Source: a virus
Taxonomy: Duplodnaviria; Heunggongvirae; Uroviricota; Caudoviricetes
Virus record (IMG/VR): IMGVR_UViG_2681813004_000004
Length of the DNA stretch: 19,742 nt
Direction: 5' to 3' (one strand)
A model generated the notes under the pieces. It had not been told where the DNA came from. It ran no database searches and was given only the letters and a program-made list of their open reading frames with translations. Below are positions 3,254 to 4,892 of this stretch, piece by piece. Position 1 is the stretch's first letter. Each line of letters starts with the position of its first letter. A program made the position numbers and the translations under genes.

Positions 3254-3568
3254 ATGCTACATGATCACGTGGCAGAATGTCTGGAGAAAAAAGGACTGTA
3301 CCGGAGAGCAGCTGAACGATGGGCAAAAGTGATGGTACAGCTAAGTGATGACCAGAAAAGAAAAGTAGCGGCACAGAAACGAGCAGAGTGTTTGCGTAAG
3401 GCGCGCCGGACTCCGGTTTCACCGGTGAACCTGACCGAAATAAAACAAGCGGTCAACAGACTACATTCTGAGTTGGGAATGGGATTTGAAGAGCGGCGGG
3501 TATTCCGACGATATAAAGGGACAGGAGAACAGAATACGTCCGGAAACGCGCGGTCAAAAAAATGCTAA
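3254..3568 (+). CDS. PerC-family-like transcriptional regulator (Pch-like), 104 aa; moron
   Basis: GGAGG about 6 nt upstream of ATG; the motif LEKKGLYRRAAERWAKVM matches my recollection of the PerC/Pch family; basic C-terminus; sits between Rz and cos where lambdoid prophages carry morons. Confidence 0.6.
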   Translation: MLHDHVAECLEKKGLYRRAAERWAKVMVQLSDDQKRKVAAQKRAECLRKARRTPVSPVNLTEIKQAVNRLHSELGMGFEERRVFRRYKGTGEQNTSGNARSKKC

Positions 3569-3604: not shown

Positions 3605-3632
3605 AAAAAGCGACTTTAGTGGTCGCTTTTTG
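3605..3632. terminator. Bidirectional rho-independent terminator between convergent genes
   Basis: aaaagcgac / gtcgctttt stem with 7-nt loop, flanked by an A-run upstream and a T-run downstream; lies between the + gene ending 3568 and the - gene ending 3650. Confidence 0.6.
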
Positions 3633-3649
3633 TGTCATATATAAGTCGT

Positions 3650-3874
3650 TTAAGTAAACCTGTCTGAACAGGTGCTCTGGTCGTGTTTGTCTTTGTTGGG
3701 TACAAATTGAGAATATTTTTCATTAATTAATCTTCTTCTGCAGGCTTCAATAACCCACGCTGAAAAATTACCTGAACCTTTCAGGTCAAGAGCGATGTTA
3801 ATTTGTTCAATTATCTGGTTTGGAAATCGGATGTTGCGGGTTGTTGTTCTGCGGGTTCTGTTCTTTGATGACAT
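3650..3874 (-). CDS. Small putative ribbon-helix-helix-like DNA-binding protein (74 aa), possibly DUF3950/YlcI-like
   Basis: ATG-initiated minus-strand ORF; basic N-terminus followed by IRFPNQIIEQINIALDLKG...SAWVIEACRRRL, consistent with a beta-strand plus two helices; adjacent to cos as in several E. coli prophages (from memory). Confidence 0.5.
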   Translation of the reverse strand: MSSKNRTRRTTTRNIRFPNQIIEQINIALDLKGSGNFSAWVIEACRRRLINEKYSQFVPNKDKHDQSTCSDRFT

Positions 3875-4081
3875 AATGTTGCCCCGTATTCAGTGTTGCT
3901 GATTTGTATTATCTGAAGTTGCTTTTACGCTAATTTGATGCAGATCAATTAATACGATACCTGCGTAATAATTGATTATTTCTCGTGGTTTGATGGCGTA
4001 CACACATGTCGTGATAAACCTCATGTAGATGATAATTATTATCATTTTCGTGGGTCCTTTCCGGCGATCCGACAGGTTACG

Positions 4082-4093
4082 GGGCGGCGACCT
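4082..4093 (+). other. cosN cohesive-end sequence GGGCGGCGACCT, copy 1, preceded by a cosQ-like segment
   Basis: 12-nt sequence identical to the lambda cohesive end as I recall it, preceded by ...tcctttccggcgatccgacaggttacg (lambda right-end / cosQ-like). Confidence 0.7.
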
Positions 4094-4187
4094 CGCGGGT
4101 TTTCGCTATTTATGAAAATTTTCCGGGGTTATTGCTCAATAATTATTATCATTTTTCGGGTCCTTTCCGGCGATCCGACAGGTTACG

Positions 4188-4199
4188 GGGCGGCGACCT
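4188..4199 (+). other. cosN cohesive-end sequence GGGCGGCGACCT, copy 2 (the copy adjacent to cosB)
   Basis: Same 12-mer and same flanks as copy 1; followed directly by the R3-I1-R2-R1-like array. Confidence 0.75.
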
Positions 4200-4235
4200 C
4201 GCGGGTTTTCGCTATTTATGAAAATTTTCCGGGAT

Positions 4236-4344
4236 CCATGTCCGGTTTCTCTTCAAGTTAACTATATGAAAAATATAAAAACAGGTCTTCTGTGAACCGG
4301 ACATGAACAAAAAACAGACATGTAAACCGGACATGACCGGTTTT
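4236..4344 (+). promoter_or_regulatory. cosB-like terminase small-subunit binding region: three R elements sharing the core aaccggacatg (one inverted) and an A/T-rich IHF-like site
   Basis: catgtccggtt at 4238-4248 (inverted), aaccggacatg at 4295-4305 and 4325-4335, A/T-rich segment 4256-4285 between the first two; immediately upstream of the Nu1-like gene. Confidence 0.6.
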
Positions 4345-4382: not shown

Positions 4383-4892
4383 GTGGCTACGCAGACTGAA
4401 GTTGCCAGGCATTTAAGTCTGACCGATCGCCAGCTTCGCAGATTGCAGAAATTGCCGGGTGCCCCGATATCGAATAAGCGAGGGCAACTGGATCTGGATG
4501 CCTGGCGCGATTTTTACATATCGTATCTGAGGAGAAGTAAAAACGATGTGCCTGATGGCGATAGCGAAGACGACTATGAGGAGAAATTGCTTATTGCCAG
4601 ATGGGAACTGACAGCAGAACAGGCTGTTACACAGCAGTTAAAAAATGAGGTGTCAAAAGGAAAACTTATTGACACCGGGTTCTGTATTTTTGCCCTCAGT
4701 AAGCTGGCAATGGCGTTATCCAGTACGCTTGATTCCATCCCTTTATCCATGCAACGACAGTTTCCTGATTTAACACCGCGCCATCTTGACCATCTGAAAA
4801 CCCTTATTGCGAAGGGGGCAAATCAGTGTGCGCGGGCGGGGGATAAATTACCGGATTTACTCGATGAATATATCAGAGCAACAACTGAATAA
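4383..4892 (+). CDS. nu1: Terminase small subunit (Nu1-like), GTG start, 169 aa
   Basis: C-terminal half (FCIFALSKLAMALSSTLDSIPLSMQRQFPDLTPRHLDHL...LLDEYI) resembles lambda Nu1; N-terminal region is HTH-like; GAGGTGAGGA precedes the GTG; directly downstream of cosB. Confidence 0.8.
   Translation: MATQTEVARHLSLTDRQLRRLQKLPGAPISNKRGQLDLDAWRDFYISYLRRSKNDVPDGDSEDDYEEKLLIARWELTAEQAVTQQLKNEVSKGKLIDTGFCIFALSKLAMALSSTLDSIPLSMQRQFPDLTPRHLDHLKTLIAKGANQCARAGDKLPDLLDEYIRATTE

What the first reader, a model, noticed from the sequence alone, without database searches (positions are those of the whole stretch)
3605..3874. Small RHH-like DNA-binding protein next to cos, convergent with the PerC-like gene across a bidirectional terminator
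The 74-aa minus-strand protein has a basic N-terminal tail followed by a strand-helix-helix-like pattern (IRFPNQII / EQINIALDL / SAWVIEACRRRL). No toxin partner is adjacent, so it looks like a standalone regulator rather than an antitoxin. Its position beside cos could imply a role in packaging or late regulation.
Basis: inference. Interest (0 to 1): 0.4.

Follow-up and report, generated by a model that had tools for sequence, protein, structure and literature searches.

The report
Small Arc-like DNA-binding gene beside cos
This is a real, strongly conserved 74-residue gene of the uncharacterised YlcI/YnfO (DUF3950) family, also present but unannotated in phage lambda, that most likely encodes an Arc-like ribbon-helix-helix DNA-binding regulator; it is an ordinary family member whose target in the phage is still unknown.

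Summary
ORF 3650-3874 (-) encodes 74 aa. It converges with a PerC gene on a bidirectional hairpin terminator (3605-3631) and lies 208 bp from cosN. It is a clear YlcI/YnfO (DUF3950) member. Phage lambda carries a homologue at complement(48110..48304).

The gene is real: pN/pS is 0.05-0.12 at pS 0.46-0.82. The ribbon-helix-helix (RHH) reading rests on several moderate lines:
- the AlphaFold topology;
- Foldseek top hits that are almost all RHH proteins, though none is significant;
- profile cross-hits to HicB-like and Arc-like PHROGs;
- an Arc/Mnt-register hhalign match.

Homologues in integrase-AlpA-primase satellites give further support. They sit on arrays of 3-4 GTG-N6-CAC operators, and the operator cores covary with the two strand residues equivalent to Arc Gln9 and Asn11.

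No toxin partner occurs in any context. Of 83 phage copies, 80 lie just upstream of the packaging genes and divergent from them. Two satellite homologues are fused to a small-terminase (TerS) DNA-binding domain.

No operator array was found for the phage copy, so its target is unknown and a packaging role is unproven. A Fur site already confirmed by gel shift in K-12 lies in its upstream region.

Verdict: a new member of a known kind, of moderate interest.

The parts
3650..3874 (-). CDS for a 74-aa YlcI/YnfO (DUF3950) family protein; ATG at 3874-3872, stop TAA at 3652-3650
   Evidence: RefSeq annotates the identical gene as 'YlcI/YnfO family protein' in E. coli O145 genomes; pN/pS 0.05-0.12
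3725..3847 (-). Conserved core, aa 10-50: putative beta-strand T12-F17, helix A 19-32, G-S-G-N turn, helix B 37-50. This is the ribbon-helix-helix module. T12, N14 and R16 align with Arc Q9, N11 and R13.
   Evidence: alignments A2/A3; AF2 model; hhalign register; PHROG cross-hits
3653..3724 (-). Non-conserved C-terminal tail, aa 51-74, low pLDDT. DNA homology to lambda ends here, so the tail and stop codon belong to the adjoining PerC mosaic segment.
3605..3631 (.). Bidirectional intrinsic terminator hairpin (A5-GCGAC-loop-GTCGC-T5) shared by PerC (+) and the DUF3950 gene (-)
3254..3568 (+). Convergent PerC-family gene (neighbour; it supplies the mosaic junction and the terminator)
3882..3885 (-). 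GGGG Shine-Dalgarno-like run 8-11 nt before the ATG
   Evidence: read from the sequence
3875..4081 (-). Upstream spacer between the ATG and cosN. It must hold the gene's own leftward promoter, but no consensus sigma-70 match was found. It is 90-95% conserved among lambdoids that have three different cosB/Nu1 types.
3944..3976 (.). 13-nt inverted repeat ATCAATTAATACG / CGTAATAATTGAT (12/13 complementary, 7-nt gap), at -70 to -102 from the ATG. It is a candidate operator or hairpin and is untested.
4031..4049 (-). Fur-box-like 19-mer (17/19 to GATAATGATAATCATTATC), 157-175 bp upstream of the ATG. The orthologous site in K-12 Qin is a Fur site confirmed by gel shift.
4032..4127 (+). cos copy 1 (cosN overhang GGGCGGCGACCT at 4082-4093)
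4139..4233 (+). cos copy 2, a tandem duplicate (overhang at 4188-4199)
4383..4892 (+). Divergent Nu1-type small terminase gene (context)

Best explanation
The ORF is a genuine gene under strong purifying selection. It encodes a small Arc/Mnt-like ribbon-helix-helix (RHH) protein of the YlcI/YnfO (DUF3950) family.

Proposed mechanism, inferred for the phage copy:
- Two chains pair their N-terminal strands (T12-F17) into an antiparallel ribbon.
- The ribbon inserts into the major groove. Invariant R16 and the variable residues T12 and N14 read the bases.
- Helices A and B form the dimer core. The basic N-terminal tail adds non-specific DNA contacts. The non-conserved C-terminal tail is disordered.

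Expression:
- The gene is transcribed leftward, counter to the late operon.
- Its own promoter should lie in the 208-bp spacer next to cosQ/cosN, which also holds a Fur site.
- Transcription ends at the bidirectional terminator shared with PerC.
- It therefore behaves like a prophage-expressed accessory gene and not like a late gene.

Function: most likely a sequence-specific transcriptional repressor or autoregulator, as in its satellite homologues, whose operator arrays overlap two divergent promoters. It is not an antitoxin.

Shown here: the gene is real, its family membership, its topology, its context, the satellite operator arrays and the operator/strand-residue covariation.
Inferred: dimerisation, DNA binding by this particular protein, its promoter and its target.
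For: - Family membership.
- Purifying selection: pN/pS 0.05-0.12 at pS up to 0.82. This includes HNH-type phages whose flanking DNA is unrelated.
- AlphaFold model: an extended strand followed by two helices, with pLDDT 70-85 over residues 11-50.
- Foldseek against the PDB: the top hits are almost all RHH proteins, namely NikR, ParD, YiiF, Arc (rmsd 2.0 A over 39 columns), MazE, VapB and CdbA.
- PHROG scan: 12 of 23 family members hit the HicB-like PHROG 497 (best E 8e-5), and 3 hit the Arc-like repressor PHROG 228 (best E 7e-4).
- hhalign against Arc (P 0.0019) and against an Arc/Mnt profile (P 9e-4), both in the register NIRFP = NLRWP.
- Satellite homologues: 11 of 19 DUF3950-gene upstream regions in the 17 satellite-bearing loci carry 3 or more copies of a 10-mer repeat, against a shuffle mean of about 1.5. 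The repeats are arranged O1-O2-(TTGAC -35)-O3 over divergent promoters.
- Operator core distance tracks the residues at positions 12 and 14: partial Mantel r 0.60, p 0.0002. It does not track the rest of the protein: r -0.14, p 0.97.
- ylcI is transcribed in K-12, where it forms a convergent overlap with ybcW (PMC12288877).
- The Fur site in the orthologous K-12 spacer is confirmed by gel shift (PMC2189734).
Against: - No structural match reaches significance; the best Foldseek E-value is 0.66.
- No Pfam RHH model and no PDB sequence is matched.
- The dimer could not be modelled.
- No sigma-70 consensus promoter lies upstream of the gene.
- No operator array lies upstream of any phage copy. 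No GTG-N6-CAC sites occur near the gene. No motif is shared between lambda-type and HNH-type flanks.
- The covariation test used positions chosen after looking at the data, on 20 related sequences.
- No experiment on any family member was found in the literature.
Confidence: 0.62

Rival explanations
1. Packaging accessory: the protein binds DNA at or near cos, or binds the small terminase. It would modulate cos recognition or cleavage, or protect the prophage cos site.
For: - 80 of 83 phage copies lie immediately upstream of, and divergent from, the packaging module. 69 have cosN within 400 bp plus a Nu1-type terS gene, and 11 lie 42 bp from an HNH gene followed by a Terminase_2 terS gene.
- The block of core codons + spacer + cosQ/cosN travels together across three cosB/Nu1 types.
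- Two satellite homologues are fused to a TerS N-terminal HTH (Pfam Terminase_2, E 1.6e-11). One of these HTH domains is 64% identical to the helper prophage's TerS N-terminus.
Against: - No repeated or shared motif was found around cos.
- In HNH-type phages a whole gene separates the DUF3950 gene from the terS gene.
- The family also occurs in satellite switch regions and as chromosomal orphans far from any cos.
- From general knowledge of lambda, about 200 bp of cos suffices in cis, and terminase plus IHF suffice in vitro.
- The slot between the lysis genes and cos is a known hot spot for accessory (moron) genes, which could explain the synteny.
Confidence: 0.15
2. Helper-satellite cross-talk: the phage protein is the helper-side paralogue of the switch repressor of PICI-type satellites. 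It would act on those satellites, or be exploited by them, through operator competition or mixed dimers.
For: - The same family occupies the int/AlpA-primase switch region of at least 16 satellites.
- A helper-embedded satellite with two paralogues sits inside the terS gene of a prophage that carries its own copy (L005).
- The nested helper-embedded arrangement itself is described in PMC10111431.
Against: - This is purely contextual.
- Phage and satellite cores are only about 35-45% identical.
- No satellite is present in this window.
- The phage strand residues (T, N) match no satellite class seen here.
Confidence: 0.12
3. Orphan RHH antitoxin, or an antitoxin mimic that neutralises a toxin encoded elsewhere.
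For: Weak profile similarity to the DNA-binding part of HicB-like antitoxins. Foldseek lists ParD, MazE and VapB among its hits.
Against: - No toxin gene is adjacent in the window or in any of the three contexts.
- The C-terminal tail, which in RHH antitoxins binds the toxin, is not conserved.
- The similarity is confined to the DNA-binding module.
Confidence: 0.04
4. Not a functional protein: the ORF is conserved only because cos-proximal DNA is constrained.
For: The non-coding spacer next to the ORF is as conserved as the ORF among lambdoids.
Against: - Substitutions are overwhelmingly synonymous.
- Homologues at 35-55% identity keep the protein motif in unrelated DNA contexts.
- Domain fusions exist.
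Confidence: 0.02

Closest known systems
YlcI (DLP12) and YnfO (Qin) of E. coli K-12; Pfam PF13132 DUF3950; NCBIfam NF041551
   Same: Same family above the curated cut-offs, with the same size. The position is also the same: counter-oriented, just upstream of the Nu1-like nohD/nohA genes, with the same Fur site in the spacer.
   Different: The C-terminal tail differs. Here it is the 74-aa allele that goes with a downstream PerC gene. The family has no known function.
Arc and Mnt repressors of phage P22 (Pfam PF03869, ribbon-helix-helix)
   Same: Small phage-encoded protein. The motif N-I-R-F-P-x-x-I/L aligns with Arc F-N-L-R-W-P-R-E-V in register, so T12/N14/R16 correspond to Q9/N11/R13. The topology is strand-helix-turn-helix. 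Three family members hit the Arc-like PHROG.
   Different: It does not reach the Pfam Arc threshold. There is no ant gene or immI-type operon beside it. Helix B carries a distinct F-S-A-W-V-x-E-A-C signature. Operators for the phage copy are not known.
RHH antitoxins (ParD, CopG-type, C-terminal domain of HicB)
   Same: Same predicted DNA-binding fold, with weak profile and structure similarity.
   Different: No toxin partner and no conserved toxin-binding tail.
Switch repressors of phage satellites and temperate phages (Stl of SaPIs, cI/Cro-type switches)
   Same: Satellite homologues of this protein sit between int/AlpA and the primase operon. They lie on 3-4 operators overlapping back-to-back promoters, which is the layout of a genetic switch.
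   Different: The fold differs: RHH here, HTH there. Gram-negative PICIs are described as controlled by AlpA, and the HE-PICI paper read here does not mention DUF3950 (PMC10111431). The phage copy in this window has no such operator array.
Small terminase N-terminal DNA-binding domains (lambda Nu1; Terminase_2 family)
   Same: Genomic neighbour in 80 of 83 phage loci. It is physically fused to the DUF3950 module in two satellite proteins.
   Different: Unrelated sequence and fold. The window protein has no terminase domain.

Membership tests
YlcI/YnfO, DUF3950 (PF13132 / NF041551 / PHROG 949) | Score above the curated HMM cut-offs | tested here: met
   Pfam 63.8 bits against 25; NCBIfam 34.5 against 30; PHROG 949 E 6.4e-31
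YlcI/YnfO, DUF3950 (PF13132 / NF041551 / PHROG 949) | Conserved core I-R-F-P...N-F-S-A-W-V-x-E-A-C in a protein of 50-80 aa | tested here: met
   I15, R16, I25, F37, W40 and V41 are invariant across 23 diverse members
YlcI/YnfO, DUF3950 (PF13132 / NF041551 / PHROG 949) | Prophage location next to the Nu1-like terS gene, on the opposite strand | tested here: met
   Window; 69 of 83 phage copies; K-12 ynfO/nohA
Ribbon-helix-helix (Arc/MetJ/CopG) superfamily | N-terminal beta-strand followed by two helices joined by a short G-x-S/T/N-type turn | tested here: met
   AF2 model: extended 13-18, helix 19-32, turn G33-S34-G35-N36, helix 37-55, pLDDT 70-85 over residues 11-50
Ribbon-helix-helix (Arc/MetJ/CopG) superfamily | Significant sequence, profile or structure match to established RHH families | tested here: inconclusive
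   For: PHROG 497 (12/23 members, best E 8e-5), PHROG 228 Arc-like (3/23, best E 7e-4); hhalign P 9e-4; Foldseek list dominated by RHH proteins. Against: best Foldseek E 0.66; no Pfam RHH or PDB sequence hit
Ribbon-helix-helix (Arc/MetJ/CopG) superfamily | Intertwined homodimer with a two-stranded antiparallel ribbon | not testable with these tools
Ribbon-helix-helix (Arc/MetJ/CopG) superfamily | Binds repeated or dyad operators through alternate strand residues | tested here: inconclusive
   Indirect, and only for satellite homologues: operator arrays and covariation with residues 12 and 14. No array was found for the window gene
Type II toxin-antitoxin system (RHH antitoxin) | Adjacent co-transcribed toxin gene | tested here: not met
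   The neighbours are PerC (convergent) and cos/terS (divergent). No toxin gene was found in any context
P22 immI-type Arc/Mnt module | Paired with an antirepressor (ant) gene that it controls | tested here: not met
   No ant-like gene flanks the ORF in the window
Terminase small subunit | Nu1 or Terminase_2 domain | tested here: not met
   No such domain is in the window protein. Only two satellite paralogues carry one

The most novel reading that the evidence does not exclude
The cos-proximal RHH protein of lambdoid phages, lambda included, may be the helper-side member of a family whose other members are the switch repressors of PICI-type satellites, some of them fused to a copy of the helper's TerS DNA-binding domain. 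On this reading the family mediates a so far undescribed regulatory dialogue between helper phages and satellites, through mixed dimers or operator and cos competition. That dialogue would link satellite induction or packaging interference to the helper's packaging module. It might also be under iron (Fur) control.
Probability: 0.12. Interest if true: 0.7.

Novelty: new member of a known kind. Interest (0 to 1): 0.42.

Why it matters
YlcI/YnfO proteins have no assigned function, and K-12's ynfO is listed among the still uncharacterised genes. The 1.4-kb region around this gene matches DNA in 4,631 of 5,426 complete E. coli genomes. A homologue sits unannotated at the right end of the lambda reference genome.

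Placing the family in the Arc-like RHH class gives it a testable mechanism. The satellite homologues supply natural operators and a candidate recognition code, namely residues 12 and 14. The Fur site, the TerS fusions and the fixed position next to the packaging genes give concrete experiments on a gene that lambda biology has overlooked.

If it proves to be only an autoregulated accessory gene, it is ordinary.

Tried and rejected
- PDB sequence searches with the protein and with two profiles gave only chance hits.
- Pfam scans of 23 members at E up to 10 gave no RHH family.
- Foldseek against the PDB and BFVD gave nothing significant.
- hhalign against the single sequences Mnt and CopG was weak, P 0.024 and 0.087.
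- The sigma-70 scan found no promoter upstream of the gene.
- I looked for satellite-type operators in the window with GGTG-N6-CACC, GTG-N6-CAC and GTRCGYAC. Counts were at or below chance, and none lay near the gene.
- No k-mers of 9-12 nt are shared between lambda-type and HNH-type flanks.
- Rfam found no RNA family in the window or in 9 loci, including no C4/isrK immunity RNA next to the satellite genes.
- The lambda ribosome-profiling paper (Liu et al. 2013) is not held, so translation in lysogens could not be checked.
- Literature searches for DUF3950, ylcI and ynfO returned no functional study.
- The first attempt at a genome-collection scan failed for lack of a conserved stretch; it worked with a narrower alignment.
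- Many apparent homologues in unrelated taxa and in the protein database turned out to be lambda control DNA or frameshifted nanopore reads, and were set aside.

Full report
**1. What is in the sequence**

The minus-strand ORF 3650..3874 encodes 74 aa. A GGGG run lies 8-11 nt before the ATG. The finding's left limit, 3605, is the start of a hairpin and not of the ORF.
- The hairpin AAAAAGCGAC-(loop)-GTCGCTTTTT at 3605-3631 folds on both strands, at -14.7 and -11.9 kcal/mol with z about -3.4 and -3.3. A U-run follows it in either direction. It lies 37 nt after the PerC stop codon and 18 nt after the stop codon of this ORF.
- PerC (3254-3568, +) is a clear Pfam PerC member, E 3.8e-44.
- Upstream of the ORF, the lambda-type cohesive-end sequence GGGCGGCGACCT lies at 4082-4093. 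It occurs again at 4188-4199 in a tandem duplicate.
- A Nu1-type small terminase gene starts at 4383, followed by the large terminase and portal genes.
- The window is 99.7% identical to prophages of E. coli O145:H28. RefSeq annotates the trio there as PerC family regulator, YlcI/YnfO family protein and terminase small subunit.

**2. Family, and whether the gene is real**

The protein scores 63.8 bits on Pfam DUF3950 (cut-off 25), 34.5 bits on NCBIfam YlcI_YnfO_N (cut-off 30), and E 6e-31 on PHROG 949, which has no assigned function.
- Phage lambda has a 64-aa homologue at complement(48110..48304). It is annotated only in a secondary GenBank record. DNA homology between lambda and the window runs from about codon 49 of the ORF through cosN.
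- The family is small. There are 101 representatives at 50% identity clustering among 1.84 billion proteins, and many of these are frameshifted reads of lambda control DNA.
- The genuine diverged members are 35-55% identical. All are 50-130 aa and keep K-N-I-R-F-P-x-x-L-I-E-x-I ... N-F-S-A-W-V-x-E-A-C. Sequence after about residue 50 is not conserved.
- Over the 47 core codons, pN/pS is 0.05-0.12 at pS 0.46-0.82. This holds against alleles in HNH-type phages, whose flanking DNA shares no k-mers of 9-12 nt with the lambda-type flanks. DNA-level constraint near cos therefore cannot explain the conservation.

**3. The fold**

- An AlphaFold model built on 23 sequences gives mean pLDDT 67.6, and 70-85 over residues 11-50. 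It shows an extended segment at 13-18, helix 19-32, a four-residue turn and helix 37-55. This is the RHH topology as seen in an isolated chain.
- Foldseek finds nothing significant; the best E-value is 0.66. Even so, the top of the PDB list is almost entirely RHH proteins: NikR, ParD2, YiiF, Arc (rmsd 2.0 A over 39 columns), MazE, VapB, ParB of pCXC100 and CdbA. The viral library behaves the same way.
- Of 23 members scanned against PHROGs, 12 hit the HicB-like family 497 (best E 8e-5) and 3 hit the Arc-like repressor family 228 (best E 7e-4).
- I recalled the Arc, Mnt and CopG sequences from memory and confirmed them as Pfam Arc/RHH_1 members. hhalign of the core profile gives P 0.0019 against Arc and P 9e-4 against an Arc/Mnt profile. 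The register is N-I-R-F-P = N-L-R-W-P, which puts T12, N14 and R16 on Arc Q9, N11 and R13. From my own knowledge of the Arc-operator structure, those three Arc residues contact the bases.
- On the negative side, Pfam RHH models and PDB sequences are not matched, and a dimer could not be modelled.
- The Pfam DUF3950 model covers only residues 21-49. It therefore leaves out the strand.

**4. Genomic contexts**

(A) Phages. Of 83 phage-type copies with enough flank:
- 69 have cosN within 400 bp upstream and a divergent Nu1-type terS gene starting 381-447 bp away;
- 11 lie 42 bp from the start of a divergent HNH gene, which is followed by a Terminase_2 terS gene;
- 3 have neither.

Downstream, the gene converges with PerC (45 loci), Rz (29) or lysozyme (4), or lies on the same strand as bor (2). 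The block of core codons + 210-bp spacer + cosQ/cosN is 90-95% conserved among lambdoids with three different cosB/Nu1 types.

(B) Satellites. At least 16 elements in Xenorhabdus, Pectobacterium, Serratia, Brenneria, Klebsiella, Enterobacter, Erwinia and Gilliamella carry the gene. It lies between int (with AlpA, shown for L005) on the convergent side and the primase operon on the divergent side.

(C) Chromosomal orphans. Copies in Pantoea, Tatumella and Rouxiella sit among metabolic genes.

No toxin-like partner occurs in any of these contexts.

**5. Functional evidence from the satellites**

- Upstream of the satellite genes lie 3-4 copies of a roughly 12-bp dyad repeat, GTG-N6-CAC. Examples are GTGCACAAACAC, CTGTGCGCACAG and GTGCGGCCACAC.
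- A 10-mer test finds 3 or more copies in 11 of 19 DUF3950-gene upstream regions in the 17 satellite-bearing loci. Shuffled sequences average about 1.5 copies. None of the phage upstream regions reaches 3 copies.
- The layout is constant. O1 is followed about 11 bp later by O2, which abuts GTCAAG. On the other strand that hexamer reads as a TTGAC -35 element for a leftward promoter, whose TAAGGT -10 element overlaps O1. A T-rich spacer follows, and then GTATAGTGT-N4-ACACC, in which O3 overlaps a rightward TATAGT.
- The repeat core is constant within an element and differs between elements.
- Across 20 distinct pairs of protein and operator, core distance correlates with the residues at positions 12 and 14: r 0.60, and partial Mantel r 0.60 (p 0.0002) after controlling for the rest of the N-terminal region. 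The rest of the protein has no independent effect: partial r -0.14, p 0.97.
- There are caveats. The two positions were chosen with the Arc alignment in mind but after I had seen the data. The sequences are also related to one another.
- This is the behaviour expected of an RHH repressor that reads DNA with alternate strand residues and controls a divergent promoter pair.

**6. Link to packaging**

Two satellite proteins carry the DUF3950 module fused to the N-terminal HTH of a Terminase_2 small terminase (Pfam E 1.6e-11; PHROG terS families E about 1e-18).
- They are L003 4714-5103 (129 aa) and L005 6001-6363 (120 aa).
- In L005 the satellite sits inside the terS gene of a prophage, a helper-embedded arrangement of the kind described in PMC10111431.
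- The HTH of the L005 fusion is 64% identical to that helper's TerS N-terminus, against 48% to the satellite's own TerS.

Together with the synteny, this ties the family to the packaging module. It does not show a packaging function.

**7. The phage copy itself**

No operator array, GTG-N6-CAC site or motif shared between phage types was found. The sigma-70 scan finds no promoter. The spacer does contain two notable elements.
- A 13-nt inverted repeat lies at 3944-3976 (12/13 complementary). Its arms occur nowhere else in the window.
- A Fur-box-like 19-mer lies at 4031-4049 (17/19; 0.01 expected by chance). Lambda has it at 16/19.

In K-12 Qin the same site lies 233 bp upstream of the nohA start and 144-162 bp upstream of ynfO. 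That is the position of the Fur site reported at nohA -233 and confirmed by gel shift in PMC2189734. The site was assigned to nohA. It could equally serve the divergent DUF3950 gene, which that paper does not mention.

RNA-seq analysis lists ybcW-ylcI as a convergent transcriptional overlap in K-12, so the DLP12 copy is transcribed (PMC12288877). No functional study of any family member was found, and ynfO is listed among the uncharacterised K-12 genes.

**8. Conclusion**

The most likely mechanism is a dimeric Arc-like RHH repressor. It would be made from its own leftward promoter at the right end of the phage genome, possibly under Fur control, counter to the late operon, and stopped at the terminator shared with PerC.

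Its DNA target in the phage is not identified. A direct packaging role and a role in helper-satellite interplay remain open alternatives. An antitoxin role and a spurious ORF are effectively excluded.

Noticed in passing
window 4032-4127 and 4139-4233: cos is tandemly duplicated. The duplicated segment covers the Fur-box half-site, cosQ, cosN and the start of cosB. The 76-nt core is 100% identical between copies, which are 106 bp apart with an 11-bp joint, GTTATTGCTCA. The closest E. coli genomes are 107 bp shorter here and so have one copy. The junction sequence was not found in 5,426 complete E. coli genomes or in IMG/VR, and 64 other loci have a single copy. It could be real and rare, or an assembly artefact.
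   Followed up: partly
window 4031-4049 (- strand); lambda L001 2779-2797; K-12 L167 295-313: A Fur-box-like 19-mer lies next to cosQ, 157-175 bp upstream of the DUF3950 ATG (17/19 match, 0.01 expected by chance). In K-12 the orthologous site lies 233 bp upstream of nohA, the position of the Fur site that PMC2189734 confirmed by gel shift and attributed to nohA/nohB. It lies between the terS gene and the divergent DUF3950 gene.
   Followed up: partly
window 3944-3976: A 13-nt inverted repeat, ATCAATTAATACG / CGTAATAATTGAT, lies 70-102 bp upstream of the ATG. The outer 8-nt arms are kept in lambda and partly lost in L046. It may be an operator or an RNA hairpin; this is untested.
   Followed up: partly
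lambda complement(48110..48304) = L001 2441-2635 (-): Phage lambda encodes a 64-aa family member at its extreme right end, reading inward from cos. It is annotated as hypothetical in KT232076. From memory, it is absent from the reference annotation.
   Followed up: partly
L003, L008, L130, L133, L135, L137, L138, L143, L145, L149-L151, L157, L159, L162, L163: about 30-125 bp upstream of the DUF3950 gene: Integrase-AlpA-primase satellites carry 3-4 GTG-N6-CAC operators overlapping back-to-back promoters in front of their DUF3950 gene. The operator cores covary with the two strand residues equivalent to window T12 and N14 (partial Mantel p 0.0002).
   Followed up: yes
L003 4714-5103; L005 6001-6363 (also L006, L007): In these satellite proteins the DUF3950 module is fused to the N-terminal HTH of a Terminase_2 small terminase. 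The L005 copy is closer to the interrupted helper prophage's TerS (64%) than to the satellite's own TerS (48%). This may be a decoy for the helper's packaging site.
   Followed up: partly
L005 (E. coli CP027459.1, 3713563-3725925): A helper-embedded satellite is inserted in the terS gene of an HNH-type prophage. It carries int, AlpA, two DUF3950 paralogues, a D5 primase, terS and a capsid gene. The prophage keeps its own DUF3950 gene 42 bp from its HNH gene.
   Followed up: partly
satellite loci, about 100-170 bp upstream of the DUF3950 gene (for example L135, L137, L157): A conserved GC-rich stem-loop, GCCCGG-N14-CCGGGC, lies in the leader of the leftward (primase) operon. It has no Rfam match at gathering threshold.
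   Followed up: partly
window 4237-4248, 4295-4306, 4325-4336: Three copies of CATGTCCGGTT (one direct, two inverted) lie in cosB. They are probably the recognition (R) sites for this Nu1 type and differ from lambda's.
   Followed up: no
L091-L124, L148, L161 and many proteins P0121-P0216: Lambda right-end DNA turns up in assemblies of unrelated taxa, including Streptomyces, Flavobacterium and Nanosynbacter MAGs, often as contigs of about 3.5 kb. The protein database also holds many frameshifted versions. This looks like sequencing control DNA contamination, and it inflates the apparent taxonomic range of the family.
   Followed up: partly
L004/L126 (Rouxiella), L128-L132, L140-L142, L152-L156, L160, L165: Orphan family members in Pantoea, Tatumella and Rouxiella sit among cytochrome bd, transporter and other metabolic genes, with no phage or satellite genes nearby.
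   Followed up: partly
window 3725-3812 (residues 21-49): The Pfam DUF3950 model has 30 positions and covers only helix A, the turn and helix B. It omits the conserved N-terminal strand, which may be why the family has not been linked to RHH families.
   Followed up: no
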